This document shows positions 19,807-51,349 of a stretch of 64,000 bases of DNA, one piece after another (the first letter of the stretch is position 1; the number at the start of each line of letters is the position of its first letter). The notes beneath the pieces are model-generated. The model was not told the origin of the DNA. It did no database searches and saw only the letters and a program-made list of their open reading frames with translations. This DNA is from a virus. Taxonomy: Duplodnaviria > Heunggongvirae > Uroviricota > Caudoviricetes. The position numbers were made by a program, and so were the translations under genes. The stretch lies in the IMG/VR virus record IMGVR_UViG_3300032093_014924; one strand, written 5' to 3'.

Positions 19807-19932
19807 TAGTCAGGACAGGATTCGAACCTGTATGAATAATGTTGCAAAACTTGGGAATGTATTTTATCGGTTTTACCAGCAACTTCTTCTAGTCCCATTT
19901 ACTTAGCGTCTGCTCTATTCCGCCACCTGACT
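19807..19932 (-). tRNA. long tRNA-like gene, paralog of the previous one (about 126 nt)
   Basis: CAGTCAGG-TG-GCGG-AATAGAGCAGA-CGC ... ACAGGTTCGAATCCTGT-CCTGACT-A. Same acceptor and T arm as 19433-19578 but a different middle. Confidence 0.45.
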
Positions 19933-25299: not shown

Positions 25300-25533
25300 T
25301 AGTTCATCTATAGTGTTTATTAAAGCCATATGTGGAATATGTCTACCAATCAACACAGACCATATTAATTCACGTTTTTGATTTAAATCCCAAACAAAAT
25401 CACGCTGTAAGTTCTTACCTCTTGTTTCTAAGAAAACATCCCAATCAATATTTAATTGTTTAAAGTACTTTACGCTTGAGCAAGCTTCTTCAACTTTTAG
25501 ACCAATATTTCTAAGTTCTTTTATAGTTTTCAT
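25288..25533 (-). CDS. hypothetical protein
   Basis: 81-aa ORF. Its 3' end runs into the right-end hairpin of the IS. Confidence 0.35.
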   Translation of the reverse strand: MKTIKELRNIGLKVEEACSSVKYFKQLNIDWDVFLETRGKNLQRDFVWDLNQKRELIWSVLIGRHIPHMALINTIDELPIG

Positions 25534-34203: not shown

Positions 34204-34225
34204 ATAATACAAAGATACTATTAAT
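34204..34225 (-). promoter_or_regulatory. conserved upstream motif instance upstream of tRNA-Met
   Basis: ataatacaaagatactattaat lies 7-12 nt from the tRNA 5' end. Confidence 0.5.
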
Positions 34226-36268: not shown

Positions 36269-37183
36269 TTATTTAATTGTTTTTTTAAAGTTATCTGTTT
36301 CTAACGATGTTATTTTATTACCAAGTTCTTGACTAGGTTTAAGATTAAATTTATCCATTACTTCTTGTGAATTAACAGACAATTCAAAATCTATAAAAGC
36401 ATCAACTAACTTTTTATCTAAATTATTTATTTGACCGAATTTTTTTATTTGTTCATCATTCAATGTTATATTTTTTTGCATCTTTTTTAATGCTACGGCT
36501 GTATCAATACTTATATTTAAAAAACTAAGTAAAAATTGAATGTTTCTTATCTCATCAATAGTGTATCTTAATTCATTTAATTTGTTACCAATGTTTTTAG
36601 GGTTATTTAATTTTAATAAAGTTGATATTGTTATGATATAATCATCTGTTAAGTTTTTGAAATTCTTATTAATATTAAGTTTAGGAAAAATCCAATCAAA
36701 TAAATTATATCTATCTATTAAAGATAGAAAGAAAGAAACATTTTTAGCTGATTTAATTCCTTTAATAAATTCATCTTTTACTCTCTCAGCAGATATACCT
36801 TCTAAACTAGCATCTTTTTGTAATGCTTCATCTGTTTGTTGGTCTATATCACTATCTAATCTGGCTGAGAATCTTAGAACTCTTAAAATCCTAAGTCTAT
36901 CTTCATTGAATCTATCTTCTGGTTTACCAACGGTTCTAATCACACCATTTTTTATATCTTCAATACCACCAACAAGGTCAACAATTTCTTTATTTTTAAT
37001 ATCGTAAAATAAAGCATTTATTGTTATATCTCTTCTTAGCACATCTTGATATATATCTGTGAATTCGACTGAATCTGGTCTTCTTTTATCAGCTAAAGTT
37101 TTTTCATAATCTTCAAATTCTTTTTTAAAGAATTCTTTAGCTATTTGTTCCCAATTTTCCATTTTAATTATTTTAATTTCCAT
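36269..37183 (-). CDS. CCA-adding tRNA nucleotidyltransferase, C-terminal portion (neck/body), separate ORF
   Basis: ADKRRPDSVEFTDIYQDVLRRDITINALFYD = the conserved RRD(F/I)TINA motif that follows the head domain. Begins with its own ATG overlapping the end of the GIY-YIG gene. Confidence 0.7.
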   Translation of the reverse strand: MEIKIIKMENWEQIAKEFFKKEFEDYEKTLADKRRPDSVEFTDIYQDVLRRDITINALFYDIKNKEIVDLVGGIEDIKNGVIRTVGKPEDRFNEDRLRILRVLRFSARLDSDIDQQTDEALQKDASLEGISAERVKDEFIKGIKSAKNVSFFLSLIDRYNLFDWIFPKLNINKNFKNLTDDYIITISTLLKLNNPKNIGNKLNELRYTIDEIRNIQFLLSFLNISIDTAVALKKMQKNITLNDEQIKKFGQINNLDKKLVDAFIDFELSVNSQEVMDKFNLKPSQELGNKITSLETDNFKKTIK

Positions 37184-37875
37184 TTATAACCACCACACTT
37201 ATTTCTATTACCATTTATTACCGACCAAATATTGCCTTGACTCAACCCTAATTCTTTTGCTGCTGCTGTTGCACTAACCCATTCTTTAATTAATTCACTA
37301 TCTTTAGATAATTGTAATACTGGTGTTGCGTTCCAAGACAAAGTACCTTTTTTGGTTTCTGATATTTGTTTTTTAGTCTCTTCGCTGTGTTTATTACCAG
37401 TATTTCTACCAGGTTTACCAATTAATGATTGACTTATTTTTTCTCTTGTTATATTACTAACCTCCCTATTTTTATTGTTTTGACTGATTTTATTCCTATA
37501 CTCTAACGACCTTATGTGACCAGAAACACCATCGCCTCCATTGGTAAGGTTGGTTAATGGACCATTTTTTAAATCATTCCTACCAATAACTAATATTAAT
37601 TTTTTTTCTAACTCGAAAGCATCAACTTCAAATATATTTTCACTAATTTTTAAAATTATTGGTTTTAAACCAATATTTATTATTTTATTAATTTTTCTAA
37701 TTTTATATGTGTTATTATCACACTTCATCCTATTAGGGTTTAAGTGTTCTAAGCATCTTTTGTAACATCCCTTTCCAACATAAAATGGTTCATATTCAAA
37801 TTTATAATCACCATATGTAAATTCACCTTTTTTTCTTGGGTCTAGGTAAACATAGACATAATATTTTGATTCCAT
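37168..37875 (-). CDS. GIY-YIG homing endonuclease inserted within the CCA-enzyme gene
   Basis: YVYVYLDPRKKGEF...FYVGKGCYKRCLEHLN = GIY-YIG module, with C-terminal NUMOD-like basic repeats. Located between the two halves of the CCA enzyme. Confidence 0.75.
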   Translation of the reverse strand: MESKYYVYVYLDPRKKGEFTYGDYKFEYEPFYVGKGCYKRCLEHLNPNRMKCDNNTYKIRKINKIINIGLKPIILKISENIFEVDAFELEKKLILVIGRNDLKNGPLTNLTNGGDGVSGHIRSLEYRNKISQNNKNREVSNITREKISQSLIGKPGRNTGNKHSEETKKQISETKKGTLSWNATPVLQLSKDSELIKEWVSATAAAKELGLSQGNIWSVINGNRNKCGGYKWKLK

Positions 37876-37919
37876 GACATTCTTTTTATTATAAATATCA
37901 TGGATTAATCTAAAAGTCG

Positions 37920-39485
37920 CTATTTCATTAATTTAGTTAAAAATTTTTCGTAACTACCATTATTTAAACGTTTTAAATAATCTTTAAACCCTTCTAAATC
38001 ATAACCTTTATATTGGTCTATTCTGAATGTGGCTATTTCATATTCATCACTATCTGTTATAACATTAATGACACCAAATGCTTTTCCTGTTGCTATTGTT
38101 TTATAACCGTTTTCTTGTAATATGTTTTCAATATCATCTGGTTTAGCATTTGTTGCTAAATCATAATCTTTTGGTTCTTTATTTAGTAAAACATCCCTTA
38201 CTGAACCACCAACAAGATATAAATCATAACCATTCTTAACAAAAATATCTTTAATATCTATTATGTCCTTTGGTAAGTTAATATCATATTTAATTCTTAT
38301 TTCAGATGAAGTATTTAATTTATTTTCGTTTTCGGTAAAAAATTGTTTATATTCATCATCTTCTTTCACGTTATTTAATAAACGTTCTTCTTCATCATTT
38401 AATGGTCTATTTATGTTTTTTAAAATCAATTCTTGATGTTTTTCATCATACTTCCAAAAATCTTCTAAAATATCTTCTAATATAGTTACATCATTTACTT
38501 TAATGTTTTCATCATAAATTAATTTAATATAACCATCATCAATCATTTTTTTAACCATTTTATAATGTGGTAATTTTTCTAATAAACCATTCTTAAATTT
38601 AATTGGTAATGAATTATAATAAACTTTTTTTAAGTTTTCATCTAACTCATCTAATTGATAAGGTTCAAAATAATATTCAAAATTTTTTATATAAATTATT
38701 TTTTCATTATTTTTTAATTTATTAAAAAAATCAATACTTAATTTATCACCAGCTAAAGCATCTGAACGCATATTTGGGAAATTAGTTATCACATCACGTT
38801 TTATTTTACAAAATAGTTCTGGGTTTTTAACTTCTACTGGATTAGACGATAGTTTAGATAAATCATATATAACAGACCCGTGTAATGTATTATCATACCC
38901 ATCTATACCGCTAACATTAACACCATTAAAACCATTGTACTCCATTATTCTTGTTGACATGGATGCTAAATTGGTTTTGTTCTTCATGTCATTTGCGGCT
39001 TCTTTAACCATATTTATATATTCACGATATTTTGGAATATTTAAACCTAGGTATTGTGCATTATTTATTATTTTTAAATAAATAATTTTGAATTTGTTAT
39101 CCATTTCAAATTTGCTATCATAAACTCTAACAACTAAATAAAAACTTTCATTTATTAGTTTTAATGTTTTAAATAACATTTCAGCATGGTCTGGTGATTT
39201 AACCCTAAATAAATTTTTATAAATATCAAAATCAACACGATAAATATTATCTTTTATTTTAGTTAATTCTTTTTTTGAGTTATCGGAATCATCAAAATTT
39301 TCACAACTATAAGTAGAAAAATAAAGACCAGAACCAAAATGCCCAGTTCCACGACCTTGCATACGAAATAAATTATCTGAACCATATGGTCTTATATTTT
39401 CTACATTTTCTATATCACCTTTATGGTAATTAAATTCCGTTTCGTTTAATAAGTTTCTTAATTTGAATTTAATATAGTTTTTCAT
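37920..39485 (-). CDS. Unknown about 400-aa N-terminal domain fused to the CCA-adding enzyme head domain (N-terminal half of the split nucleotidyltransferase)
   Basis: C-terminal 90 aa YDLYLVGGSVRDVLLNKEPKDYDLATNAKPDD...GKAFGVINV...EYEIATFRIDQY = class-II polymerase-beta head domain (GGxVRD, DxD, ATFR). The ORF stops immediately after. Confidence 0.7.
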   Translation of the reverse strand: MKNYIKFKLRNLLNETEFNYHKGDIENVENIRPYGSDNLFRMQGRGTGHFGSGLYFSTYSCENFDDSDNSKKELTKIKDNIYRVDFDIYKNLFRVKSPDHAEMLFKTLKLINESFYLVVRVYDSKFEMDNKFKIIYLKIINNAQYLGLNIPKYREYINMVKEAANDMKNKTNLASMSTRIMEYNGFNGVNVSGIDGYDNTLHGSVIYDLSKLSSNPVEVKNPELFCKIKRDVITNFPNMRSDALAGDKLSIDFFNKLKNNEKIIYIKNFEYYFEPYQLDELDENLKKVYYNSLPIKFKNGLLEKLPHYKMVKKMIDDGYIKLIYDENIKVNDVTILEDILEDFWKYDEKHQELILKNINRPLNDEEERLLNNVKEDDEYKQFFTENENKLNTSSEIRIKYDINLPKDIIDIKDIFVKNGYDLYLVGGSVRDVLLNKEPKDYDLATNAKPDDIENILQENGYKTIATGKAFGVINVITDSDEYEIATFRIDQYKGYDLEGFKDYLKRLNNGSYEKFLTKLMK

Positions 39486-39519: not shown

Positions 39520-40407
39520 TTAACAACCAAAAAAATCTTTTAAATCTTCATTTTTTTTAAGGTCTCTTATCGCAAACTCTATTATTTTTTTAATTCTTAT
39601 AGTTGTCATATTATACTCTTCTGACATTTGTTTAATTGTTAATTGTTTATAGTCATACAAACCATAATAATGACAAATAATAACTCTACTTATAGGGTTT
39701 AAAGAATATATTACCTTTTTTAATACTTCGTTTGATTCTTTTTCTTCACTATCTACTTCAAAATCATTGTGTTTGAATAAATAATCATTTTCTTCAGTTA
39801 TTAATGATTTAGTAACAACACTAGATTTAATAGCCATCAATACACTATTTTTTATTCTATCTGTACCAATATCAGAATTATTAATAACATATTCGTAATC
39901 AAGTTCATGACCACATTCTTTCTCCATTTTTGCTTTCAAATTATTTATTATTTTAATTTTAGGCATAATGTTTGAAGATATGTTAGCTACATATAAATTT
40001 TCATTTAAAAACAATAAAATTCTTTTTCTTATATGCCAAATAGCATATGAAATAAATTTATTATCTGAATCTGTTTTGAATTGTTCAATAGCTTCACTTA
40101 AGCCAATATTGCCCTCACATATCAATTCTTCAACACCAATATCACCACTGGTTATTTTTTTAGCATATGTTCTTGCAACAGAAACAACAAATAAAAGATT
40201 ATGATTTATTATTTTATCTTTTATTTTTTTTCTGTCTAATTCATCAGTTGTCTCAGACAACTTTATGAATAGTTCTTTTTCTTCTTCTTTGGTTAAAGGT
40301 TTAAGCTTTTCAATTTGACTGTAATAAGCTTTTAAAGATTCTTTAGATAATGTGTTTACAAAAAAATCATCATTACCAAGTCTTTTTTTACCGAAATCTG
40401 TTATCAT
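39520..40407 (-). CDS. Sigma-70 family RNA polymerase sigma factor
   Basis: Region 2 FISYAIWHIRKRI and region 4 LTIKQMSEEYNMTTIRIKKIIEFAIRDLKK. Confidence 0.7.
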   Translation of the reverse strand: MITDFGKKRLGNDDFFVNTLSKESLKAYYSQIEKLKPLTKEEEKELFIKLSETTDELDRKKIKDKIINHNLLFVVSVARTYAKKITSGDIGVEELICEGNIGLSEAIEQFKTDSDNKFISYAIWHIRKRILLFLNENLYVANISSNIMPKIKIINNLKAKMEKECGHELDYEYVINNSDIGTDRIKNSVLMAIKSSVVTKSLITEENDYLFKHNDFEVDSEEKESNEVLKKVIYSLNPISRVIICHYYGLYDYKQLTIKQMSEEYNMTTIRIKKIIEFAIRDLKKNEDLKDFFGC

Positions 40408-40977: not shown

Positions 40978-41178
40978 TAAAAACCTAGAAACTTATAAAT
41001 TTCTTTATAATAATAAGATACAACACCAATTATACTATAAAATATAATGTAATCATACCAATGATAACCAATAGGTTTAATAAAGATAAATAAAATGGTT
41101 ATCGGACATGTCAATAACCAACACTTAAATAGTTCTTTTAAAAAGTTTTTCATATTTTTTTTATGTTTAAATTAATTG

Positions 41179-41256
41179 TAATCAGGACAGGATTCGAACC
41201 TGTAATAGACGCTCCTTAGAGTCCGCTATCTTGGCAACCAATTCCGCCACCTGACT
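41179..41256 (-). tRNA. tRNA-like gene (paralog of the Leu-like family; the anticodon arm does not fold canonically)
   Basis: AGTCAGG-TG-GCGGAATTGGTTGCC ... ACAGG-TTCGAAT-CCTGT-CCTGATT-A. It shares the acceptor and T arm with the other family members, but I could not find a 5-bp anticodon stem. Confidence 0.35.
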
Positions 41257-41386
41257 AAGAAAATAACTAATGAGGTCTTCGTTTCTCCTAGCTGGCCCAC
41301 TTGAATATTTCTATTCTTGCCCGACTCGAACGGGAATGCTAGCAACCCAATCCAGCTTGCTCTTTTCAGAGTCATTAGTTATTTTT

Positions 41387-41489
41387 GTTGTTAGGACAGG
41401 ATTCGAACCTGTACGCAGTATCTTAATTACAGGCTCTTTTCACGATACTGCCGAGCCATGCGTGCGTCTACCAATTCCGCCACCTAACT
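41387..41489 (-). tRNA. long type-II tRNA-like gene (Leu-like), about 103 nt
   Basis: AGTTAGG-TG-GCGG-AATTGGTAGA-CGC ... ACAGG-TTCGAAT-CCTGT-CCTAACA-A. The middle 50 nt contains a 9-bp stem CGCAGTATC/GATACTGCG. Confidence 0.45.
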
Positions 41490-41757
41490 TCCACCCCACC
41501 TTGAGATTACTGGTGAGTAGATGTATCGGTTTTCTTTCTTTCAATAAACCTGTGGGTCTTACCCTCTTAAAATTAGTCAAACTACTTGGAGCCTCTGTTA
41601 CCTAGCTTTATTCCAAAGAGACTGGCGTTTTATAGAGCTATAACCAGTTTCTACCAAAATGTGATAGTCTTCTTTATAGATATTAGGATGTCCAGTCTAA
41701 TACCCTATTCATTGTTTAAGTCTTGAATTAAAGACTCTGAGTATCTCTTACTCATTG

Positions 41758-41843
41758 TAGTTAGAGTGGGGGTCGAACCCACAAGGGCGTTTCTGCCCAC
41801 AAGATTTTAAGTCTTGCATGTTTTCCTATTTCATCATCTAACC
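41758..41843 (-). tRNA. tRNA-Leu(UAA)
   Basis: GGTTAGA-TG-ATG-AAATAGGAAAA-CAT-G-CAAGA-CTTAAAA-TCTTG-TGGGCAGAAACGCCCTTG-TGGG..TTCGACC-CCCAC-TCTAACT-A. Anticodon UAA, long variable arm, canonical T loop. Confidence 0.7.
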
Positions 41844-41974
41844 ATTTTATTATTTACAGGATAGCGTTAGTTGACTTTATCTATTTTGAATTTGAATGTA
41901 ACTTTTGCTGAATCTATCCTTTAAAATAATTTATATTACAAATTTACTAACTTTTTAACATTAAAACAATTTTT

Positions 41975-42050
41975 TTTATTTTTATACCCTATATGGTATT
42001 AATTTATTTGTTTTATTATTTTTATACCCTATAGGGTAATATTTTTAGTT
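41975..42050. repeat. tandem direct repeat containing the palindrome TACCCTATAGGGTA
   Basis: Two copies of tttttatttttataccctatA(t/g)ggta about 37 bp apart. Lies in the about 400-bp non-coding leader between a promoter motif (about 42204-42224) and the tRNA cluster. Confidence 0.6.
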
Positions 42051-42203
42051 ATTTACAGAATCGGTTTTTCGGGTTGAATTTAAAAGATTCATCGATAATT
42101 TAATTTTGCTGAAATAATTCTTCAAAATAACTAAAATAATTTCAAAGTGGGTTTCTATAATTTTGCATAATTATTCTTTTTTGTTTTGCTGTAACCACTT
42201 TTT

Positions 42204-42224
42204 ATAATACAAATATACTAACCT
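42204..42224 (-). promoter_or_regulatory. conserved upstream motif instance driving the tRNA-cluster leader
   Basis: ataatacaaatatactaacc, with no ATG-initiated gene downstream. About 360-nt leader, then tRNA-Leu(UAA). Confidence 0.5.
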
Positions 42225-42257
42225 TTACCTCATGAAAACAAATTTATTTTCTGTTTT

Positions 42258-42500
42258 TTATGTAATTATTTGATTATTAACCAATTTAAAATCTACTTTA
42301 GGTTTAAGTTCTGTTAAAACAACTATTATTTGTTGTTTTTCTATTTTTGAAATATCATAAATTACATTAACCACTTCGTAATATATATCATTAAAGAAAA
42401 GTAATTCATTTTTTTTAGGAATAACATTCATTTGGATATCATTTTTTAAAATCTTCCAATTTACATCTATAAACCTTATATTATTTTTTTTCTTAAACAT
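42258..42500 (-). CDS. hypothetical protein
   Basis: 80-aa ORF. Confidence 0.35.
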   Translation of the reverse strand: MFKKKNNIRFIDVNWKILKNDIQMNVIPKKNELLFFNDIYYEVVNVIYDISKIEKQQIIVVLTELKPKVDFKLVNNQIIT

Positions 42501-42625
42501 AAGTCAAATTTACTACATTTTTTTAATTAATGAACGATATTTATTAATAAATAACATTTAGCTAAATAATTTAAATCATGAAAAATCAAGTAAGAGAATG
42601 TGGTTGTAAAAAATAACCATGTATT

Positions 42626-42646
42626 AAGGGGATTTTAAATCCCCTT
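42626..42646 (-). terminator. hairpin AAGGGGAttttaaATCCCCTT, likely an intrinsic terminator
   Basis: Perfect 8-bp G+C-containing stem followed by a T/A run, immediately 3' of ORF 42654-42911. Confidence 0.5.
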
Positions 42647-42653
42647 AATTATT

Positions 42654-42911
42654 TTAAATGTTTTCAATATTTTCATTTTGGGTTGTATCTTTTTTTGTTC
42701 TTCTACTAGAAAATTGTTCGGATGCTGTAAACCCTAAACCACCTAACACAATCCAAGCCATATATTCATATATAAACTCGTTTACAGTGTATTCAAAGAA
42801 TAAATCTGATATAAACCCTATAGCCATAAAAATAAACGCCATTAAGGTCACAAAACGCTTACTTGATACTTTATTCTCAACCAATAATAATGACATAAAG
42901 AACTTTCCCAT
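42654..42911 (-). CDS. small membrane protein
   Basis: 85 aa with two TM helices. Confidence 0.4.
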   Translation of the reverse strand: MGKFFMSLLLVENKVSSKRFVTLMAFIFMAIGFISDLFFEYTVNEFIYEYMAWIVLGGLGFTASEQFSSRRTKKDTTQNENIENI

Positions 42912-42964
42912 AATATTTAATTTATTTATAAATATGCTGAAATAAAAAAAACCTTACAAAATAA

Positions 42965-43317
42965 TTGTAAGGTTTTTAGTGGAGCGAGTCGGAGTTGCAC
43001 CAACGTGTTGGTTATTCTTCAATACCTTTCTACATGTTTATAATGGTTTTCTAACCATTCAAAATACATCAAATTTGTTAAGTTCTCTGATTAGAAACTA
43101 ATGGACTACCATTATGTTGTAGAAAATACTACAATTAAGTAAGTTATTACTATCAGCGATATCAGGCTACCGCAAGCTCTCCAGCGAAGCTACATGTAAC
43201 TTCGTTAAGGAAATTTTCAGAAACAACTAAATCGTTGCCATTTGTTTGTTTTGATAGGGTATTTAAGTGTTTCCATCTAACACTACATGCTTAATACTTA
43301 CGACTATAACCAGTCGA
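42965..43317 (-). ncRNA. ssrA: tmRNA (SsrA)
   Basis: Minus-strand 5' end GGGGCGAUAUUAGAAUCGACUGG... is near-identical in pattern to the bacterial SsrA 5' end GGGGCUGAUUCUGGAUUCGACGGG. The 3' end ...GGUGCAACUCCGACUCGCUCCA is the T-arm-like + acceptor strand pairing with GGGGCGA. A candidate internal tag ORF ...FAGELAVA-UGA ends with a typical hydrophobic (A/L/V)A tag. Promoter motif about 14-19 nt upstream. Confidence 0.8.
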
Positions 43318-43330
43318 TTCTAATATCGCC

Positions 43331-43350
43331 CCATTGTTTTAATAATTATT
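43331..43350 (-). promoter_or_regulatory. conserved upstream motif instance upstream of tmRNA
   Basis: ttattacaaatatactaaaa about 14 nt 5' of the GGGG start of ssrA. Confidence 0.5.
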
Positions 43351-43399
43351 ACAAATATACTAAAAGATACAAATAAAAACAAATATTATTTAATAAATA

Positions 43400-43924
43400 T
43401 TATGTGTATTTATCAATAATAGTTTTAAACATGTAATAATATGTGCTAATAGTTGTTTTAGCACCGTGAGTACTAACATTATTAAATTCATTTTTAATAA
43501 CATCAGAAATATTGTTTATGGTTGATGCTTTTTCTATAAATGAAAAACCCTCCCTTTCTTGAAATATGATTAACGCTTTTCTAACGCTGTACGTGCCGTA
43601 AAAAGAAAACGGCATATAGTTTGATTTTATCCAATCCCACATGTCATTAGGGTTGTTTGTGTTTGGTGCTTCTTGATGACAATCTTTACATAGAAGAACA
43701 TAGTTGTCAGGTGAATCACTACCACCTAAACTATGTGGAACTATATGACATCTTTCTAATGAAGGGGTTTTATGTGATTTTCTAAATCTGTCATCACCAC
43801 AATTCCAACAGTGTGTGTGTGCATCGGCCCAATCGAAATTTAATTCTAGTTCACTTATATTACTATTTTTTATCCAGTAATCAGCAATATGTTTTATAGT
43901 TGTTTTACAATATCTTGTCGCCAT
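43400..43924 (-). CDS. HNH homing endonuclease
   Basis: HCWNCGDD...CHIVPHSLGGSDSPDNYVLLCKDCHQ = HNH motif with zinc-binding cysteines. Confidence 0.75.
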   Translation of the reverse strand: MATRYCKTTIKHIADYWIKNSNISELELNFDWADAHTHCWNCGDDRFRKSHKTPSLERCHIVPHSLGGSDSPDNYVLLCKDCHQEAPNTNNPNDMWDWIKSNYMPFSFYGTYSVRKALIIFQEREGFSFIEKASTINNISDVIKNEFNNVSTHGAKTTISTYYYMFKTIIDKYT

Positions 43925-43933
43925 TATTATTAA

Positions 43934-44650
43934 TTATTTTTTTCTACTTATTACCGAATCAATAATACCATATTTAAGTGCTTCATCAGCATTCAACCAA
44001 AGGTCCCTGTCAGCATCTTTCATAACTTGTTTTGCAGTTTTGTTTGTGTACTCACCAAGCAACCCAAATAATATTTCATTATATTTCTCAGTTTCAGCAA
44101 TTGTTAATCGCATGTCTTGAATAGTACCCCCCATTGAAGAAGAAACTTGGTGTAGCATAACTCTACTGAAACTTAAACTATACCTTTTACCTTTGGTTCC
44201 AGCACCTAATAATACACTACCCATACTAGCGGCCATACCTGTGTTTATAGTGACGATATCAGAAGATATATAACCAATAACATCAACAATTGATAAACCA
44301 CTTTTAACGCTACCACCAGGTGTATCAATATGTAGAGTAATATCTTTTGTTTCCATATTATCAAGAAACATTAATTGTGCTTGAACAACCGTGCTCATCC
44401 TATCGTTAACTGGTCCAGCTAACCATATAATCCTATCCATCATCATTCTATCAAACACTGACATTAGTGTTGCTCTGAATTCTCTTTCTTCCAAAATCAT
44501 CGGTGATAAAGAACCAAATACATTTACATTTGAATAAATGTTTTCTTGCAGTTTTTCCCAATAATATAGTTGCATACTGCTTATGCCCATGTGTTTTGTT
44601 GCATAAGATTTGAATTCTTCATGCATACCAGTGTCTACTAAATTTTCCAT
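43934..44650 (-). CDS. clpP: ATP-dependent Clp protease proteolytic subunit ClpP
   Basis: DRIIWLAGPVND...TPGGSV...NTGMAASMGSVLLGAG...MLHQ gives a full-length match to the ClpP fold, with a catalytic Ser (GMAASMGS) and His (LHQ). Confidence 0.85.
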   Translation of the reverse strand: MENLVDTGMHEEFKSYATKHMGISSMQLYYWEKLQENIYSNVNVFGSLSPMILEEREFRATLMSVFDRMMMDRIIWLAGPVNDRMSTVVQAQLMFLDNMETKDITLHIDTPGGSVKSGLSIVDVIGYISSDIVTINTGMAASMGSVLLGAGTKGKRYSLSFSRVMLHQVSSSMGGTIQDMRLTIAETEKYNEILFGLLGEYTNKTAKQVMKDADRDLWLNADEALKYGIIDSVISRKK

Positions 44651-44657
44651 TTTTTTT

Positions 44658-44909
44658 TTAATTGTTTAAACTTCTAACATAAATTGGTGTATTTTCACCT
44701 AGCCAAGCACCTAAAATATTAAAATGATAATATTCTTCGGCTTCATCATATGACATATCATATTTATCGATTAATATTGATAACATTTTTTCTACATCAT
44801 ATGTTACAACTGGGTTTAAATTAATTCTTTCCGCAATACCTATTATTGCATCATCAAACCCATCACACATTAGTGCTTCTGGATTAATCAATTCTATCTG
44901 TTCTTTCAT
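44658..44909 (-). CDS. hypothetical protein
   Basis: 83-aa ORF. Confidence 0.35.
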   Translation of the reverse strand: MKEQIELINPEALMCDGFDDAIIGIAERINLNPVVTYDVEKMLSILIDKYDMSYDEAEEYYHFNILGAWLGENTPIYVRSLNN

Positions 44910-44912
44910 ATT

Positions 44913-45104
44913 TTATTTAATAACTTCAATTTTAATTATTCTATCATCAGAAGAAAAATTTAACGGACTATCGTTAAAATTATCTGATATAAATCTATAT
45001 GCTGCTGTTGGATTACAATTAAATTCGTCATGAAATGTTTTCTCGTCAATCATTTCTGTACAATCAAACTCAACTGTTATTCTAAAACCAATATTCTTTT
45101 CCAT
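44913..45104 (-). CDS. hypothetical protein
   Basis: 63-aa ORF. Confidence 0.3.
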   Translation of the reverse strand: MEKNIGFRITVEFDCTEMIDEKTFHDEFNCNPTAAYRFISDNFNDSPLNFSSDDRIIKIEVIK

Positions 45105-45106
45105 GA

Positions 45107-45643
45107 TTAATTATTAAAGCATTTCCTACATATAGGTATATAAGTTTTTTTATCACCGATATACATCAAATCAGTATTATTAACCATTCTTTTAGAATAG
45201 TTTGCCAAATTTTTCTTACAGACCATACAAATTGAATTAATCTTATCAACTTTATCAGCAATTGAAAATAATTTAGACATTGTTATAAACGGATTTCTTT
45301 CATAATCCAAATCTAAACCACTTATTATTATTCTTTTACCTTCATCAGCCATTCTTAATACAATCTTGTATAAATCTTCATCAAAGAATTGAGCTTCATC
45401 TATTGCAATAACTTCATAATCTTTACTCTTATTGTAGATATCATCAATGTTATCGACAACAACAGCTTGTAATTCACCACATAAATCATGTGTTGCTATT
45501 GCATTATTTTCCTTTTCGTTTCTACTATCAATGTTAGGTTTGAAAACAATGAAACTTGTTTCAGAAATTATAACTCTTTTAATTCTTCTAATCAACTCTT
45601 CTGTTTTACCTGAAAACATAGGGCCACAAATAACCTCAATCAC
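45107..45643 (-). CDS. tdk: Thymidine kinase
   Basis: MIEVICGPMFSGKTEELIRR (P-loop) ... IAIDEAQFF ... C-terminal Cys-pair zinc ribbon (CMVC...CRKC). Confidence 0.85.
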   Translation of the reverse strand: MIEVICGPMFSGKTEELIRRIKRVIISETSFIVFKPNIDSRNEKENNAIATHDLCGELQAVVVDNIDDIYNKSKDYEVIAIDEAQFFDEDLYKIVLRMADEGKRIIISGLDLDYERNPFITMSKLFSIADKVDKINSICMVCKKNLANYSKRMVNNTDLMYIGDKKTYIPICRKCFNN

Positions 45644-45645
45644 TA

Positions 45646-46086
45646 TTACCTCCCTGTTCTACTTAAAGATTCGTCTTCAGATTGGTTTTCAGCATCGTAA
45701 AGACTTTTAATTGTTTCTCTAACATTTTCAATAACTTCAAATGTATGTTTTCTTAAGATACCGCTATGAGCCAAAAAGTCTGGTTCAGTAATTAATACTT
45801 TATCTTTATCCATGTCATAAGCGATATATGCTACAGCTTCTTCAGCAACAATCATTTTTTGCACATCGGTTAATTGTTCAAAAATGTTTTGATTAATAAT
45901 AATGATAACATCATCACCAGTTCTGTACTTTAACAAATCATTAGCCCTCATAACTTTAAAAATCTTTTTTGATTTGTTATCTGCTAATAACTTAATGTTT
46001 ACACTTGGTGGTAATGTTGATTGGTTAACAACCACTTCATCAAATAAACTTTCAATGTCCTCATAAGGTTCTTCAAATCTTGCCAT
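45646..46086 (-). CDS. hypothetical protein
   Basis: 146-aa ORF with the promoter motif upstream. Confidence 0.4.
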   Translation of the reverse strand: MARFEEPYEDIESLFDEVVVNQSTLPPSVNIKLLADNKSKKIFKVMRANDLLKYRTGDDVIIIINQNIFEQLTDVQKMIVAEEAVAYIAYDMDKDKVLITEPDFLAHSGILRKHTFEVIENVRETIKSLYDAENQSEDESLSRTGR

Positions 46087-46123
46087 AATTACTTTTTTTT
46101 TAACTTGTTATTTATAATACAAA

Positions 46124-46146
46124 TATACTAATAATAATCGAACTAA
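46124..46146 (-). promoter_or_regulatory. conserved upstream motif instance
   Basis: ataatacaaatatactaataata upstream of 45646-46086. Confidence 0.5.
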
Positions 46147-47744: not shown

Positions 47745-48737
47745 TTATTCGGTTATATTGTTTTCAATAATTCTTAATTTATTTATCACTTCTTTTTGTT
47801 CTTCTGTTATGCTTTTTGGTATTGATATATCAGCAATAACAAATAAATCACCACGTGAATTGCTTTTAAATTTATTTAATCCTTTTTGTGGTATTCTAAA
47901 CATTTTATTTAATTCAGTATGTTCTGGTATGTTAATTCTTATTTTACCACCATCAATCGTTTCTATATCTATTTTATCACCTAATACTAATTGGTCATAT
48001 CTTAGCTTAACATTTAACTTTAAATCATCACCAGACCTAACATACGTGTCATGTGGTAATTCTTTAATTCTGACGATTAGATTACCATTTATACCATTCC
48101 TAACAGCATTACCTCTACCATTTATATTAAAACCCATATTTTCAAAAACACCTTTTGGTATTTCTAATTCTATTTCGTCTGTTATCTTTTTAGTACCACT
48201 ACCATTACAATCACCACAAACATCCTCATAAACAATACCATCACCTTCACAAACATTACAAGTTGTTGCTTGTTGGAAATAACCAAATGGTGTTTGTGTT
48301 ACATTAATAATAACACCATCACCATTACATTTAGGGCAAGTCTTAGAATTTGTACCACCATGACCATTACATGTTTTACAACTATCCAATCTATCAAATC
48401 TATATTTGTTTTTTACACCATTATGTATCTCGTTAAGATTTAATTTAATTTCTAATAAAACATCACTACCAATCTTTTGTGGTTTCGCAAAATCATTAAA
48501 ATCAAATATTGAACGTCTTTTTTCTGTACCAAATCTATCATAATTTGACCTTTTTTCATCATCAGATAATACACCATAAGCCTCAGATATGTCTTTAAAT
48601 TTTTCTTCAGCTTCTTTGTTGTCAGGATTCTTATCTGGATGATATTGCTTTGCCAACGTTCTATAGGCTTTTTTAATCTCATCCTTTGTTGCATCTTTAG
48701 CAACGTTTAAAATAGCATAATAATCTTTCTTTGACAT
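47745..48737 (-). CDS. dnaJ: DnaJ (Hsp40) chaperone
   Basis: J domain DYYAILNV...[16 protein letters not shown]. Four CxxCxGxG zinc-finger repeats. C-terminal substrate-binding domains. Confidence 0.85.
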
Positions 48738-49918: not shown

Positions 49919-51349
49919 TTACAAACTTATTTTTGAATATCTTTCTGAGTTAACAATATCTAACATTATTTTTTCTGGTGAATAGTCAACATCACCTAAA
50001 ATATTTTTAAGTAATGTTGGTGAAAAACCACTAACTAAACAAACACCACTCTTATCGTATTTTACTGGGAAATTATTATTAGCACCATTTAAATTCCAGT
50101 AAATAACACTAGGCATTTTATAACCAGCATCATTATACATCCTTTCAATCATCTCTTGTGCAGATGTATTATATTTAACACCTTGATTAAACTGCATATC
50201 TGACAATATCACAAGTGTATCTGGCATTTCATCAGCTGAAACTTTGTTTTTAACAGCTGAATTTAATACTAAATTGAAAACACTCTCTAAATTGGTTGAC
50301 ATACCCCAATGAGAATTGCTCATTTGGATAAACCTTTCACTTAAAGTACCTTTAAGTATTTCTAATGTCGGTGATGATGAAAATGTAACAAAACCATCTT
50401 TAAATAACCCTTGATTTCTTTCAGAAATGTATATACCTAAAGATATAGCAACATCTAAACATGTTATTGTTTTACTACTACCAGCAGGACATGACATAGA
50501 ACCAGAAACATCTACGATAGGTAATAGTCTTTTTTTATTACCTTCCATATAATTAGGTAATGAATTCCATTGAACATCCGCACCATCTTTATTACCATAA
50601 CGCATATTTTTAATAATATCGTATGGATATACTGCACCAGCTTTAATAGTGGTTTTACCTGTCTTAACATCATTAATAAAAGATAAAAATCTTTCTTTAT
50701 CATGTCTAATAAATACTGACATGTAATCACTCATGGCTTTTGATGGTATTTTATTATATTCAATAGAACCCCATTTATTAGAACACATAAGTTGTTCAAC
50801 AGTATTTGACAAGTCACTTAGTAATATTCTATATTCTTTAGGTGACAATCCTAAACTTTTTCTAATTTGATTAGCCCAACGTTTTTTATCTTTATTATTA
50901 ACATTAGGTCTTGGTAACCATTTTGCACATAACCCGTCTTTGGCTTTTAAACCCTCTCTAATGAGCGTTAATACGTTATCCTTTGCCTTGGTATCAATCA
51001 AAGGTAACATGTCATCCCATCGCCCATATTCGCTAATTAAATGGATATTATTAATTAACGTATTTAAATCGTTATCAGCAAGGTAAGTAATAACATCTTT
51101 AAAGATTTGACGTTCACCTGCACCTTCTCTTACATCACGACTCCAAAATAAAATTTTAAGTGCTATTAATTTATTCTCATGGTATGCTTTAATGAAGTTA
51201 TTCATCAACGTTTGCTTATTGTGTTTACCTCTTAACGCACCAATACTGAAAAACAAATCAACACAATGATTGCTTGTCGTACTATTAGCCAACATACCAT
51301 TTGTTGTTAGCGTATCATTACTTGTCATACCGTTAAATAAGTTACTCAT
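49919..51349 (-). CDS. vWA-domain protein, possibly Ro60/TROVE-like
   Basis: C-terminal LPIVDVSGSMS...TFSS...SDM = von Willebrand A MIDAS motif (DxSxS...T...D). The N-terminal about 260-aa helical domain is of uncertain identity. Confidence 0.4.
   Translation of the reverse strand: MSNLFNGMTSNDTLTTNGMLANSTTSNHCVDLFFSIGALRGKHNKQTLMNNFIKAYHENKLIALKILFWSRDVREGAGERQIFKDVITYLADNDLNTLINNIHLISEYGRWDDMLPLIDTKAKDNVLTLIREGLKAKDGLCAKWLPRPNVNNKDKKRWANQIRKSLGLSPKEYRILLSDLSNTVEQLMCSNKWGSIEYNKIPSKAMSDYMSVFIRHDKERFLSFINDVKTGKTTIKAGAVYPYDIIKNMRYGNKDGADVQWNSLPNYMEGNKKRLLPIVDVSGSMSCPAGSSKTITCLDVAISLGIYISERNQGLFKDGFVTFSSSPTLEILKGTLSERFIQMSNSHWGMSTNLESVFNLVLNSAVKNKVSADEMPDTLVILSDMQFNQGVKYNTSAQEMIERMYNDAGYKMPSVIYWNLNGANNNFPVKYDKSGVCLVSGFSPTLLKNILGDVDYSPEKIMLDIVNSERYSKISL

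What the first reader, a model, noticed from the sequence alone, without database searches (positions are those of the whole stretch)
41179..45643. Translation-rescue / proteostasis module: tRNA cluster, tmRNA, HNH, ClpP, thymidine kinase
Within 4.5 kb the phage encodes three tRNA(-like) genes, a 400-bp structured leader, tmRNA, an HNH homing endonuclease, ClpP and two small ORFs. DnaJ follows 2 kb further on. The co-localisation of ssrA with clpP (separated only by a mobile HNH gene) looks like a functional unit for tagging and destroying stalled-ribosome products, possibly to recycle host ribosomes or to target host proteins.
Basis: inference. Interest (0 to 1): 0.75.

Follow-up and report, generated by a model that had tools for sequence, protein, structure and literature searches.

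The report
Phage ClpP protease–tmRNA quality-control cluster
A large uncultured phage carries a genuine ribosome-rescue RNA (tmRNA, with its own unusually long degradation tag) right next to a genuine ClpP protease gene, and this pairing is kept in well over a hundred related phage contigs, which makes the unexplained role of phage tmRNAs directly testable.

Summary
On the minus strand lie a real tmRNA gene (42977-43332), an HNH endonuclease, a true ClpP with an intact Ser-His-Asp triad, thymidine kinase and, 2 kb on, a full DnaJ. Only one of the three "tRNAs" is canonical (tRNA-Leu-UAA). The other two are tRNA-like RNAs without an anticodon loop. The "400-bp structured leader" is not supported.

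In 80 related viral contigs (ClpP 61-76% identical), 71 have a full-length tmRNA on the same strand 82-1975 bp downstream of clpP. Starting instead from the tag-coding pattern, all 53 loci with visible upstream sequence have clpP there. HNH, TK and five small ORFs are insertions specific to this lineage. The ancestral block is DnaJ, a peptidase-like ORF, orf83, ClpP, then ssrA. One lineage has smpB between clpP and ssrA.

The 25-27-aa tag (…ENFL…GELAVA) is conserved as a coding sequence. Its coding pattern appeared in no bacterial species genome.

Functional coupling (tagging, then ClpP-dependent degradation) is plausible but inferred. The whole region is syntenic, and ssrA has its own promoter-like motif and terminator. 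I rate it a new variant of a known kind, moderately interesting.

The parts
42977..43332 (-). tmRNA (ssrA) gene, one-piece. The acceptor stem GGGGCGA/UCGCUCC has G3:U70 and a discriminator A. CCA is not encoded (the sequence reads ACUA).
   Evidence: Rfam 48.5 bits against a gathering score of 47. ARAGORN -ps80. Family alignment and covariation, with G:U in 50 of 50 sequences. The T-loop (UGCAACU) and a D-loop G-to-A change depart from the family consensus.
43162..43239 (-). Tag reading frame inside the tmRNA: resume codon GGC, 25 codons plus UGA, encoding GNDLVVSENFLNEVTCSFAGELAVA.
   Evidence: ARAGORN tag positions 94-171 of the gene. The frame is open in 50 of 50 distinct homologues, indels are multiples of 3, and the third codon position is the most variable (entropy 1.07 against 0.70 and 0.60).
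43350..43362 (-). Promoter-like motif TAGTATATTTGTA, ending 17 nt upstream of the tmRNA 5' end.
   Evidence: The motif TAGTAWNTTTGWA occurs 18 times in the window against 0.34 expected, 17 of them on the minus strand.
42947..42977 (-). Intrinsic-terminator-like hairpin (13-bp stem followed by a T run) directly after the tmRNA.
43400..43924 (-). HNH endonuclease ORF filling the clpP-ssrA gap. It is a lineage-specific insertion.
   Evidence: Pfam HNH E 7e-8. Present in all six same-species contigs. No tblastn hit in 80 relatives.
43934..44650 (-). ClpP serine protease subunit, with an N-terminal extension of about 47 residues.
   Evidence: Pfam E 1.1e-54. PDB ClpP chains to E 2e-43. Best NCBIfam model is a ClpP equivalog at 225.7 bits, while ClpP-like head-maturation models reach only 71-76 bits. 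The Ser/His/Asp triad is invariant in 73 phage homologues.
44658..44909 (-). orf83, a conserved small protein immediately upstream of clpP. Function unknown.
   Evidence: Found in 67 of 80 relatives. PHROG 13182, unknown function. The AlphaFold model is of low confidence, pLDDT 65.7.
44913..45104 (-). orf63, a lineage-specific small ORF.
   Evidence: No hit in 80 relatives. No Pfam or PHROG match.
45107..45643 (-). Thymidine kinase. It is a lineage-specific insertion and not part of the conserved block.
   Evidence: Pfam TK E 1.3e-50. No hit within 10 kb of clpP in 80 relatives.
45646..46086 (-). Peptidase-like ORF (weak PhageMetallopep match) with no HExxH motif. It is the first gene after the promoter-like motif at 46118-46130.
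   Evidence: Pfam 28.4 bits. Found in 74 of 80 relatives. 0 of 68 family members have HExxH. Motif position.
47745..48737 (-). Type I DnaJ co-chaperone. In relatives it lies directly upstream of the peptidase-like ORF.
   Evidence: Pfam DnaJ, DnaJ_CXXCXGXG and DnaJ_C. NCBIfam DnaJ_bact 322 bits. Found in 70 of 80 relatives, ending about 0.75-1.1 kb upstream of clpP.
41757..41843 (-). Canonical tRNA-Leu(UAA).
   Evidence: ARAGORN. Rfam 54.1 bits.
41388..41489 (-). tRNA-like RNA A. It has acceptor, D and T arms. The centre is replaced by a 50-nt segment in which two crossing helices can be drawn by eye. There is no anticodon loop.
   Evidence: Rfam tRNA 32.5 bits with a 37-nt insertion. Fold. 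Paralogues at 41179-41256, 19433-19578 and 19808-19931.
41179..41256 (-). tRNA-like RNA B, a paralogue of A. Its central hairpin ends in a UAAG tetraloop and has no anticodon loop.
   Evidence: Rfam 28.4 bits, below the gathering score of 29. Fold.
41260..41385 (-). Conserved structured RNA of unknown class. It has an 11-14-bp terminal stem, a small hairpin, a T-arm-like hairpin and an invariant GACGAAG.
   Evidence: Homologues lie in tRNA arrays or next to the tmRNA in 12 viral contigs. The terminal stem and hairpin are kept with different sequences in 10 distinct copies. No Rfam match.
49919..51349 (-). Ro60/TROVE-like RNA-binding protein (Pfam DUF2828), part of the same conserved block.
   Evidence: PHROG 850 'RNA-binding protein', E 1.6e-151. 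AlphaFold pLDDT 76.8. The top 7 Foldseek PDB hits are all Ro60, Rsr or TROVE proteins, E 3e-8 to 1e-5 over about 500 columns. Found in the flanks of 54 of 80 relatives.

Best explanation
This is a conserved ribosome-rescue and proteolysis neighbourhood of one widespread family of large, AT-rich, uncultured phages.

Ancestral layout: DnaJ, a peptidase-like ORF, orf83 and ClpP, followed directly by ssrA. In this lineage the block was stretched by insertions: HNH, thymidine kinase, orf63 and four small ORFs.

Shown:
- The tmRNA is a real, selected gene with the alanine identity pair G3:U70.
- It carries a family-specific 25-27-codon tag ending in a hydrophobic LAVA, VAFA or VALA.
- ClpP is a true ClpP with an intact catalytic triad.
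- The two genes keep their order and strand across more than 100 contigs.
- The clpP operon, ssrA and the tRNA cluster are each preceded by the same promoter-like motif.

Inferred mechanism:
1. ssrA is transcribed as its own unit and trimmed.
2. It receives CCA, possibly from the phage's own CCA-adding enzyme, because CCA is not encoded.
3. Host AlaRS charges it with alanine.
4. With SmpB it enters ribosomes stalled on broken mRNAs during infection. SmpB is supplied by the host in most members and is phage-encoded next to ssrA in one lineage.
5. It releases those ribosomes and appends A-GNDLVVSENFLNEVTCSFAGELAVA to the nascent chain.
6. An AAA+ unfoldase recognises the hydrophobic C-terminus and feeds the chain into ClpP. 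No unfoldase gene is in the window, so it is presumably host ClpX or ClpA/C. The phage boosts or re-specifies ClpP with its own subunit.
7. DnaJ recruits host Hsp70 to the same proteostasis task.
For: - tmRNA identity: Rfam above the gathering score. Tag frame from ARAGORN. 34 of 42 pairs show compensatory changes and G3:U70 is present in 50 of 50 sequences. The tag frame is open in 50 of 50 with a codon-like substitution pattern.
- ClpP identity.
- Linkage, anchored on ClpP: 71 of 80 loci have ssrA 82-1975 bp downstream on the same strand, median 413 bp.
- Linkage, anchored on the tag: 53 of 53 loci with visible upstream sequence have clpP there. The 7 loci without it have at most 515 bp upstream.
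- The order survives several different insertions in the gap: HNH here, a GIY-YIG/NUMOD endonuclease in L048, unrelated ORFs, and smpB in L086.
- smpB lies between clpP and ssrA in the L086/L090/L091 lineage, Pfam SmpB E 2e-52.
- The same promoter-like motif precedes the clpP operon (46118-46130), ssrA (43350-43362) and the tRNA cluster (41937-41949). None lies between 46118 and 43362.
- A terminator follows ssrA.
- Among 185,579 species genomes the tag-coding pattern occurred only on a mis-binned phage contig.
- Established knowledge: SsrA tags with non-polar C-termini are degrons for ClpXP, ClpAP and other proteases.
Against: - The whole region, from the Ro60-like gene to the CCA-adding enzyme, is syntenic in this family. 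Adjacency could simply be inherited.
- ssrA is an independent transcription unit and sits at the border of an RNA-gene island of tRNAs, tRNA-like RNAs and CCA-adding enzymes. It may belong to that island rather than to clpP.
- No SmpB, ClpX or ClpA gene is in the 64-kb window or its flanks.
- ClpP does not itself read tags.
- The two Tyr residues that PDB ClpPs share in the YLY motif are Thr/His in most family members. I know these from memory as part of the unfoldase-docking pocket. Docking may therefore differ.
- Long tags ending in AFA are, from my own knowledge of Mycoplasma, read by Lon rather than ClpXP.
- The window's own tmRNA departs from the family consensus in the T-loop (the position equivalent to U55 is G) and in the D-loop (GG becomes AG).
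- ClpP in the 634-kb phage LR745206 has no tmRNA nearby.
- A few relatives lack the adjacent tmRNA: L051, L058, L064, L065, L068 and L069.
Confidence: 0.55

Rival explanations
1. The synteny is inherited and there is no functional coupling. ssrA is simply the first gene of the phage's translation-RNA island (tmRNA, tRNAs, tRNA-like RNAs, CCA-adding enzymes, RNA ligase and kinase). That island happens to abut a chaperone and protease block in the common ancestor of this family. The tmRNA rescues ribosomes. ClpP has another job, for example degrading host regulators or defence proteins together with a host unfoldase.
For: - The whole block is collinear in relatives.
- ssrA has its own promoter-like motif and terminator.
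- tRNA arrays and RNA-repair or CCA enzymes lie downstream.
- ClpP occurs without a nearby tmRNA in another huge phage.
- Jumbo-phage ClpP is discussed in the literature as a weapon against the host, without mention of tmRNA (PMC7824862).
Against: - Downstream of ssrA the order and spacing vary widely: orf80, orf168 and the CCA enzyme lie 0.3 to 9.8 kb away. By contrast the clpP-ssrA junction is kept in 71 of 80 loci, and in 53 of 53 tag-anchored loci, despite repeated insertions.
- When smpB was acquired in one lineage it landed exactly between clpP and ssrA.
Confidence: 0.3
2. The tmRNA copy in this particular lineage is decaying or has been repurposed. The HNH insertion removed the conserved 5' leader, and the T-loop and D-loop have mutated. 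The copy may therefore no longer act in trans-translation. It could instead act, for example, as an SmpB-titrating decoy.
For: - The T-loop reads UGCAACU against the family's UUCGAUU, and the D-loop GG has become AG.
- ARAGORN rejects the gene at its default threshold, and Rfam clears the gathering score by only 1.5 bits.
- The (A/C)GTTCTTTAA leader conserved in relatives is absent here.
- A phage tmRNA reduced to little more than its tRNA-like domain, and the idea that such a molecule inhibits tmRNA by titrating SmpB, are described in PMC4131195.
Against: - The acceptor stem, G3:U70, the full tag frame with its stop codon, the P2 helices, a promoter-like motif and a terminator are all intact.
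- All six same-species contigs gave the same nhmmer score, so the sequence appears fixed in the species.
Confidence: 0.1
3. The ClpP homologue is a capsid (prohead) maturation protease of the ClpP-like S14 type, unrelated to tag-directed proteolysis.
For: The best PHROG match is 'head maturation protease', phrog_94, E 1e-39. Some E. coli jumbo phages annotate their homologue in that way.
Against: - NCBIfam ClpP equivalog and subfamily models score 150-226 bits across the whole protein. The ClpP-related head-maturation models score 71-76 bits, below their cut-offs.
- About 45% identity over 190 residues to cellular ClpP structures.
- No portal, capsid or scaffold genes are nearby. The neighbours are DnaJ, a Ro60-like protein and RNA genes.
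Confidence: 0.03
4. The ssrA sequence is an attachment-site remnant picked up from a host tmRNA gene by imprecise excision.
For: Host ssrA genes are known prophage integration sites, and ssrA fragments do occur in prophages (PMC9004378).
Against: - The gene is full length.
- It has covariation-supported structure and a conserved family-specific tag in 50 distinct homologues.
- No integrase is called in the region.
- No matching bacterial tmRNA was found.
Confidence: 0.01

Closest known systems
Bacterial SsrA(tmRNA)-SmpB trans-translation with ClpXP/ClpAP degradation of tagged proteins
   Same: - One-piece tmRNA with a tRNA-Ala-like acceptor (G3:U70).
- An internal tag frame ending in non-polar residues followed by a stop codon.
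- A true ClpP with a Ser-His-Asp triad encoded in the same genome.
   Different: - The genes lie side by side. From my own knowledge, bacterial ssrA usually neighbours smpB. The survey in PMC4131195 lists the tmRNA gene, ratA/rnfH and RNase R as the most frequent neighbours of smpB and does not list clpP.
- No SmpB or unfoldase gene is in the window.
- The tag is 25-27 residues long with a conserved ENFL core, not about 10 residues.
- The resume codon is GGC or GAC.
- The ClpP residues aligned to the YLY motif of PDB ClpPs are altered.
Known phage-encoded tmRNAs: Bxz1-like mycobacteriophages, Bacillus phage G, the OM43 phage Melnitz and pelagimyophages, and huge phages
   Same: A complete ssrA in a large lytic-type phage genome rich in tRNAs, with unknown function. 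Ribosome maintenance or selective tagging has been proposed (PMC4131195, PMC9004378, PMC7162821). Bxz1-type phages also carry Ro60 and Y RNAs (PMC4201824), as this family carries a Ro60-like gene.
   Different: - None of those reports describes a conserved ClpP neighbour.
- Melnitz has a two-piece tmRNA under a glutamine riboswitch.
- This family's tag pattern was not seen in any of 185,579 species genomes.
- No deposited phage genome matches this locus.
ClpP genes of jumbo and megaphages: Mahaphage, Lak phages and E. coli jumbo phages
   Same: A stand-alone clpP without clpX in a very large phage. The nearest deposited homologues are in Mahaphage and Lak megaphages. The Lak records list Prevotella as host. 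Literature discussion is in PMC7824862.
   Different: - At most 58% identity.
- The closest one, LR745206, has no tmRNA, DnaJ or other block genes within 12 kb.
Long SsrA tags of Mollicutes (about 27 residues, ending in …AFA) read by Lon. This comparison rests on my own knowledge and was not retrieved here.
   Same: Tag length, an Asp or Gly resume codon, an acidic/Asn-rich N-terminal part and an xAFA or xAVA C-terminus.
   Different: No sequence homology was shown. Mollicutes lack ClpXP, whereas this phage supplies a ClpP. The protease that reads the phage tag is unknown.
Ro60 (Rsr) with Y RNA (YrlA) RNA quality-control modules
   Same: - The block contains a protein with the Ro60 fold.
- The flagged RNA cluster contains tRNA-like RNAs.
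- It also contains a conserved RNA with a long terminal stem, a T-arm-like hairpin and GACGAAG, which fits the YrlA motif GNCGAAN0-1G.
   Different: - No Rfam YrlA match.
- The motif sits on the 3' side of the RNA rather than near the 5' end.
- The RNA lies about 8.5 kb from the Ro60-like gene, not within 4 kb.
- Binding is untested.

Membership tests
tmRNA (Rfam RF00023) | Covariance-model score at or above the curated gathering score | tested here: met
   48.5 bits against 47, full-length match to model positions 1-374. This is marginal, but nhmmer with the family profile gives E 1e-74.
tmRNA (Rfam RF00023) | tRNA-Ala-like acceptor stem with G3:U70 and a discriminator A | tested here: met
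   GGGGCGA pairs with UCGCUCC, followed by A. G:U at this pair in 50 of 50 homologues, and the neighbouring pairs covary.
tmRNA (Rfam RF00023) | Canonical T-arm and T-loop (UUCRANY) with a D-loop GG | tested here: inconclusive
   A 5-bp T stem is present. The loop reads UGCAACU and the D-loop GG has become AG in the window, while relatives have GGUUCGAUUCC and GG.
tmRNA (Rfam RF00023) | Internal tag reading frame with a resume codon, an in-frame stop and a non-polar C-terminus | tested here: met
   25 codons plus UGA, ending in LAVA. The frame is conserved in 50 of 50 homologues with a codon-like substitution pattern.
tmRNA (Rfam RF00023) | Pseudoknots PK1-PK4 around the tag | tested here: inconclusive
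   The P2 helices and the hairpin after them covary. The region downstream of the tag aligns poorly (posterior probabilities 1-5), and pseudoknots were not modelled.
tmRNA (Rfam RF00023) | SmpB partner available | tested here: not met
   No SmpB Pfam hit among the called genes across the window and flanks. tblastn with SmpB finds nothing in the window. One related lineage encodes SmpB between clpP and ssrA. Supply by the host cannot be tested here.
tmRNA (Rfam RF00023) | Alanylation and tagging activity | not testable with these tools
   Requires biochemistry or proteomics.
ClpP (peptidase S14, PF00574) | Family profile match above the curated cut-off | tested here: met
   Pfam 185.5 bits against a cut-off of 20.2, E 1.1e-54.
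ClpP (peptidase S14, PF00574) | Catalytic Ser-His-Asp triad | tested here: met
   GMAASMG, HQ and DRD align to S97, H122 and D171. The triad is invariant in 73 phage homologues.
ClpP (peptidase S14, PF00574) | NCBIfam ClpP equivalog cut-off | tested here: not met
   The best model, NF011091, scores 225.7 bits against a cut-off of 361. This is a divergent member, not an orthologue-level match.
ClpP (peptidase S14, PF00574) | Distinct from ClpP-like prohead proteases | tested here: met
   Head-maturation models score 71-76 bits, below their cut-offs of 120 and 475. No structural genes are nearby.
ClpP (peptidase S14, PF00574) | Conserved residues of the unfoldase-docking pocket, and a partner AAA+ unfoldase | tested here: inconclusive
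   The YLY motif of PDB ClpPs reads TLH here. In the family, Y60 is T in 58 of 73 and Y62 is H in 63 of 73. No ClpX or ClpA gene is in the window.
tRNA (RF00005), for 41388-41489 and 41179-41256 | Gathering score, ARAGORN call, and a 7-nt anticodon loop on a 5-bp stem | tested here: not met
   Scores are 32.5 bits (above 29) and 28.4 bits (below 29), reached only by skipping the anticodon arm. ARAGORN does not call either at default settings. The folds show no anticodon loop. They work like tRNA mimics and are not decoding tRNAs.
HNH homing endonuclease | HNH domain, plus presence/absence polymorphism at a conserved site | tested here: met
   Pfam HNH, HNH_5 and HNH_2. Present in the six same-species contigs and absent from 80 relatives, whose clpP-ssrA gap can be as short as 82-145 bp. 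Cleavage and homing were not tested.
Type I DnaJ (Hsp40) | J domain with HPD, a CxxCxGxG zinc finger and a C-terminal substrate domain | tested here: met
   All three Pfam domains are present. HPD is visible in the translation. NCBIfam DnaJ_bact scores 322 bits, below its cut-off of 377.
Ro60/TROVE (for 49919-51349) | HEAT-repeat ring plus vWA fold | tested here: met
   The top 7 Foldseek hits are all Ro60, Rsr or TROVE proteins, full length, TM-score 0.35-0.60. The sequence profile gives only E 0.68 to TROVE chains.
Y RNA / YrlA (for 41260-41385) | Rfam match, GNCGAAN0-1G motif near the 5' end, T- and D-like arms, and location within 4 kb of the Ro60 gene on the same strand | tested here: inconclusive
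   No Rfam hit. GACGAAG and a T-arm-like hairpin are present but on the 3' side. Same strand, but about 8.5 kb away.

The most novel reading that the evidence does not exclude
This phage family runs a private degron system. It has a phage-specific 25-27-residue tag that does not resemble host tags. Its own ClpP has remodelled residues at the YLY motif, which I know from memory as part of the unfoldase-docking pocket. The conserved neighbours (orf83, the catalytically dead peptidase-like protein, or an unfoldase elsewhere in the genome of at least 293 kb) would act as a dedicated adaptor or partner. Products of ribosomes stalled during infection would then be routed to a phage-controlled protease independently of the host's SsrA pathway. 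The whole would form part of a larger phage-encoded RNA and protein quality-control island: Ro60-like protein, candidate Y-like and tRNA-like RNAs, CCA-adding enzyme, RNA ligase and kinase, DnaJ, ClpP and tmRNA.
Probability: 0.2. Interest if true: 0.8.

Novelty: new variant of a known kind. Interest (0 to 1): 0.6.

Why it matters
Phage-encoded tmRNAs have been catalogued for about twenty years without an established function. ClpP genes in giant phages are equally unexplained.

A conserved clpP-ssrA junction, a tag seen only on phage contigs, and an occasional smpB at the same junction give a concrete, testable hypothesis: tag, then ClpP-dependent degradation. They also give an easily recognised marker peptide (…ENFL…GELAVA) for proteomics or metaproteomics.

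The result also shows that this uncultured phage family groups RNA-surveillance genes (a Ro60-like protein, tRNA-like RNAs, CCA-adding and RNA-repair enzymes) with protein-surveillance genes (DnaJ, ClpP, tmRNA). That suggests large phages maintain the translation apparatus of the infected cell as an organised function.

Tried and rejected
- **tRNA-Leu with an intron.** ARAGORN with introns allowed proposed a tRNA-Leu(UAA) with a 238-nt intron spanning 41178-41489. I rejected this for three reasons. Each tRNA-like element has its own complementary acceptor stem. Rfam finds no group I intron. The 'intron' core is an independent conserved RNA found between ordinary tRNAs in other phages.
- **Permuted tRNA reading** of 'tRNA-like, ncRNA, tRNA-like'. 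Rejected because the cross-complementarity is explained by paralogy.
- **Prohead-protease reading of ClpP.** Rejected.
- **attP-remnant reading of ssrA.** Rejected.
- **Function of orf83.** The AlphaFold model was too poor (pLDDT 65.7) to justify a fold search. There are no Pfam or NCBIfam hits.
- **The 'metallopeptidase'.** No HExxH in 68 of 68 family members, so it should not be called an active peptidase.
- **blastn against deposited phages.** No relative of the locus was found.
- **SmpB search in viral contigs.** Only one lineage of this family turned up.
- **Sigma-70 promoter scan.** Not enriched, 36 found against 36 expected.
- **Window ORFs ending in an SsrA-like degron.** None found.
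- **Full-length covariance model of the tmRNA.** Not attempted, because the calibration limit excludes a model of about 360 nt. I used an nhmmer profile instead.
- **Habitat and host.** These could not be read from the tools. A Bacteroidota host is only suggested, by three observations. The promoter-like motif contains TAnnTTTG, a resemblance I recall rather than tested. ClpP's best NCBIfam model covers its N-terminal extension. The nearest deposited ClpPs are in Lak phages, whose records list Prevotella as host, and in Mahaphages.

Full report
**1. What is in the sequence**

All genes of the flagged interval lie on the minus strand.
- ARAGORN at default settings finds only tRNA-Leu(UAA) at 41757-41843.
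- Rfam at gathering thresholds adds a tmRNA at 42977-43332 (48.5 bits against a gathering score of 47) and a tRNA-like hit at 41388-41489.
- A permissive Rfam scan adds 41179-41256 at 28.4 bits, just under the tRNA gathering score of 29.
- Pfam identifies five proteins: HNH (43400-43924), ClpP (43934-44650, E 1.1e-54), thymidine kinase (45107-45643), a weak 'phage metallopeptidase' match (45646-46086), and a complete DnaJ (47745-48737).
- The small ORFs at 44658-44909 and 44913-45104 have no Pfam match.
- G+C rises to 0.42-0.45 across about 41175-41850, against about 0.2 on either side. This marks an RNA-gene cluster.

**2. The tmRNA is real**

The gene begins GGGGCGA and ends UCGCUCC-A-CUA. 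That gives a 7-bp acceptor stem with the G3:U70 alanine identity pair. CCA is not encoded.

ARAGORN calls the gene once its threshold is relaxed. The tag it reports is GNDLVVSENFLNEVTCSFAGELAVA*.

The decisive evidence is comparative.
- An nhmmer profile finds full-length homologues in 73 of 80 related loci.
- An alignment of 50 distinct copies gives a consensus fold in which 34 of 42 pairs show compensatory changes. The G:U pair is present in 50 of 50 sequences.
- The tag frame is open in all 50. Indels come in multiples of three and the stop codon is aligned.
- The third codon position is the most variable, with entropy 1.07 against 0.70 and 0.60.
- The family tag reads [DG]N[DE]F.[VI][SD]ENFL..A…GE[LV]A[VFL]A and is 25-27 residues long.

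One caveat applies. The window's copy has an unusual T-loop (UGCAACU instead of UUCGAUU) and an AG in place of the D-loop GG.

**3. ClpP is a true ClpP**

- It matches solved ClpP structures down to E 2e-43.
- Its best NCBIfam model is a ClpP equivalog that also covers the N-terminal extension, scoring 225.7 bits, below that model's cut-off of 361. The ClpP-like head-maturation models reach only 71-76 bits.
- The Ser-His-Asp triad is invariant in 73 phage homologues.
- The YLY motif of PDB ClpPs reads TLH here and in most relatives. From memory, these Tyr residues are part of the unfoldase-docking pocket.

**4. The synteny test**

The exact ClpP protein occurs on 24 metagenome contigs. The longest size class is 0.2-1 Mb. 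orf83 occurs on a contig of 293.5 kb. This is therefore a jumbo phage.

IMG/VR holds at least 594 ClpP relatives. I analysed the best 80, which are 61-76% identical.

Anchored on ClpP:
- tblastn of the window's proteins shows a conserved block: Ro60-like (DUF2828), orf154, DnaJ, the peptidase-like ORF, orf83 and ClpP. Downstream genes follow at variable distances.
- HNH, TK, orf63 and the four small ORFs between DnaJ and the peptidase-like ORF have no hit in any relative. They are insertions in this lineage.
- ssrA lies on the same strand 82-1975 bp downstream of clpP in 71 of 80 loci. The median distance is 413 bp.
- Two further loci have a different tmRNA (tag GNAEYAMAA) 6.1 kb away. One locus is truncated and six lack a tmRNA.

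Anchored on the tag instead:
- A DNA pattern for the tag frame finds 62 viral loci.
- All 53 in which upstream sequence is visible have clpP upstream on the same strand, with ClpP identity as low as 52%. The seven without it have at most 515 bp of upstream sequence.

What fills the gap:
- The gap holds different things in different lineages: HNH here, a GIY-YIG/NUMOD endonuclease, unrelated ORFs, and smpB in L086/L090/L091 (Pfam E 2e-52).

Negative controls:
- In 185,579 species genomes the tag pattern gave four hits. Three are not tmRNAs. The fourth is a contig of this phage family binned into a Methanobacterium MAG.
- The closest ClpP in deposited phages, in the 634-kb LR745206 at 58% identity, has no tmRNA or other block gene within 12 kb.

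**5. Transcription signals**

- The motif TAGTAWNTTTGWA occurs 18 times in the window against 0.34 expected. Seventeen copies are on the coding strand.
- Copies lie upstream of the peptidase-like ORF (46118-46130), of ssrA (43350-43362) and of tRNA-Leu (41937-41949). A further copy is at 42208-42220.
- None lies between 46118 and 43362. The peptidase-like ORF, TK, orf63, orf83, clpP and HNH therefore look like one operon, and ssrA looks like a separate unit of the same promoter class.
- A 13-bp terminator hairpin follows ssrA.
- Sigma-70-type sites are not enriched.
- Relatives share a conserved (A/C)GTTCTTTAA leader just 5' of the tmRNA. The window has lost it.

**6. Missing partners**

No SmpB, ClpX or other Clp ATPase domain appears among the called genes across the window and its flanks. 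tblastn with SmpB is also negative.

**7. Interpretation**

The parts and their conserved juxtaposition are shown. Their cooperation is inferred from what is established for bacterial SsrA tagging and Clp proteolysis.

The main rival is inherited synteny. ssrA sits at the border between a proteostasis block and an RNA island. The island holds tRNAs, tRNA-like RNAs, CCA-adding enzymes, an Rnl1-type ligase and a kinase.

I give the coupled mechanism 0.55 and the uncoupled reading 0.30.

**8. Literature**

- Phage tmRNAs are known, in Bxz1-type mycobacteriophages and Bacillus phage G (PMC4131195).
- About 2.3% of phage genomes carry one, including Melnitz (PMC9004378).
- Huge phages carry tmRNAs and SmpB (PMC7162821).
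- Jumbo-phage ClpP is also known (PMC7824862).
- Five full-text searches found no report of a clpP-ssrA linkage.

The finding is therefore a new variant of known kinds.

**9. The rest of the flagged RNA cluster**

- The two tRNA-like genes belong to a four-member paralogous family, with the other members at 19433-19578 and 19808-19931. All four share acceptor, D and T arms. Their central domains differ and none is an anticodon arm.
- Between the two lies a conserved RNA of about 125 nt. Its homologues sit in phage tRNA arrays or directly after the tmRNA.
- The terminal stem and adjacent hairpin of that RNA are maintained with unrelated sequences in ten distinct copies. It matches no Rfam family.
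- The DUF2828 protein of the conserved block has the Ro60/TROVE fold. The RNA carries GACGAAG, which fits the Ro-binding motif GNCGAAN0-1G of bacterial Y RNAs (PMC4201824). A Y-RNA role is therefore a lead. An HDV-like pseudoknot topology is an alternative reading (PMC10879173).
- The 267 nt at 41490-41756 remain unexplained.

Noticed in passing
window 49919-51349 (-): The DUF2828 protein of the conserved block is a Ro60/TROVE-plus-vWA protein by predicted fold. The top seven PDB matches are all Ro60, Rsr or TROVE proteins, including Ro60 of Thermus phage phiLo. Pfam gives only DUF2828 and DUF7788, and PHROGs gives 'RNA-binding protein'.
   Followed up: yes
window 41260-41385 (-); also L118:11954-12059, L062:7517-7610, L159-L168: A conserved structured RNA of about 105-135 nt embedded in phage tRNA arrays, or directly downstream of the tmRNA. 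It has a fully covarying terminal stem and hairpin, a T-arm-like hairpin (CCCG-UUCGAGU-CGGG), an invariant GACGAAG and a possible pseudoknot (GGGUU with GACCU). It has no Rfam match. It is a candidate Y-RNA-like ligand of the Ro60-like protein or a minimal HDV-like ribozyme, and neither reading is shown.
   Followed up: partly
window 41388-41489, 41179-41256, 19433-19578, 19808-19931 (-): Four paralogous tRNA-like RNAs share an acceptor stem (AGUCAGG/CCUGACU type), a class-II-like D arm and a T arm. In place of an anticodon arm they carry different central domains of 30-95 nt. In two of them crossing helices can be drawn by eye. L167 shows the same 'tRNA-like, ncRNA, tRNA-like' arrangement.
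   Followed up: partly
window 41490-41756 (-): A 267-nt segment with raised G+C (about 0.37-0.45), no credible ORF, no Rfam hit, no homologue outside the species and no thermodynamic signal of structure (z = -0.14). It remains unexplained.
   Followed up: partly
window 36269-39485 (-): The CCA-adding enzyme gene is split into two ORFs (37920-39485 and 36269-37183) by a GIY-YIG/NUMOD homing-endonuclease gene (37168-37875). Relatives have one contiguous ORF in the same frame. L014 carries a different interruption. Whether the split is an intron or a two-piece enzyme was not tested.
   Followed up: partly
window, 18 sites, for example 43350-43362, 46118-46130, 41937-41949 and 34208-34220: The promoter-like motif TAGTAWNTTTGWA is about 50-fold over-represented, and 17 of 18 copies are on the coding strand. 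It contains TAnnTTTG, which I recall as the Bacteroidota -7 box. This hints at a Bacteroidota host or a phage sigma factor; two sigma-70-family genes are at 39520-40407 and 62459-63298.
   Followed up: partly
window 25530-26654 and 27005-27931 (-); 24092-25291 (+): An Rnl1-type RNA ligase and an AAA_33 kinase-like protein together look like a T4-style tRNA-repair pair. A TnpB/IS605 OrfB gene lies on the opposite strand beside them.
   Followed up: no
window 45646-46086 (-) and 67 relatives: The 'PhageMetallopep'-like protein conserved between DnaJ and clpP lacks the HExxH motif in all 68 sequences examined. The equivalent stretch reads (V/A)EE(A/S)(L/I). It is probably not an active metallopeptidase.
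   Followed up: yes
L086:10707-11141 (also L090, L091): One related lineage carries smpB exactly between clpP and ssrA (Pfam SmpB E 2e-52). No other relative has smpB within 10 kb.
   Followed up: yes
relatives, the 16 nt immediately 5' of the tmRNA (for example L013, L014, L024): A strongly conserved leader, (A/C)GTTCTTTAAnTTAT, abuts the mature tmRNA 5' end in most relatives and is missing in the window. Several recurring conserved elements also follow the tmRNA in relatives, for example …GATTC…GAAAT…AACCC…AGTCGC.
   Followed up: no
L096 (PLXT01000115.1, 170,662 bp): A contig of this phage family, carrying ClpP at 69% identity together with the tmRNA, DnaJ and other block genes, is deposited as part of a Methanobacterium MAG. 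This is probably a binning artefact.
   Followed up: partly
L056 and L070, about 6.1 kb downstream of clpP: A subgroup of relatives lacks the long-tag tmRNA next to clpP. It carries a different tmRNA with a short tag, GNAEYAMAA.
   Followed up: no
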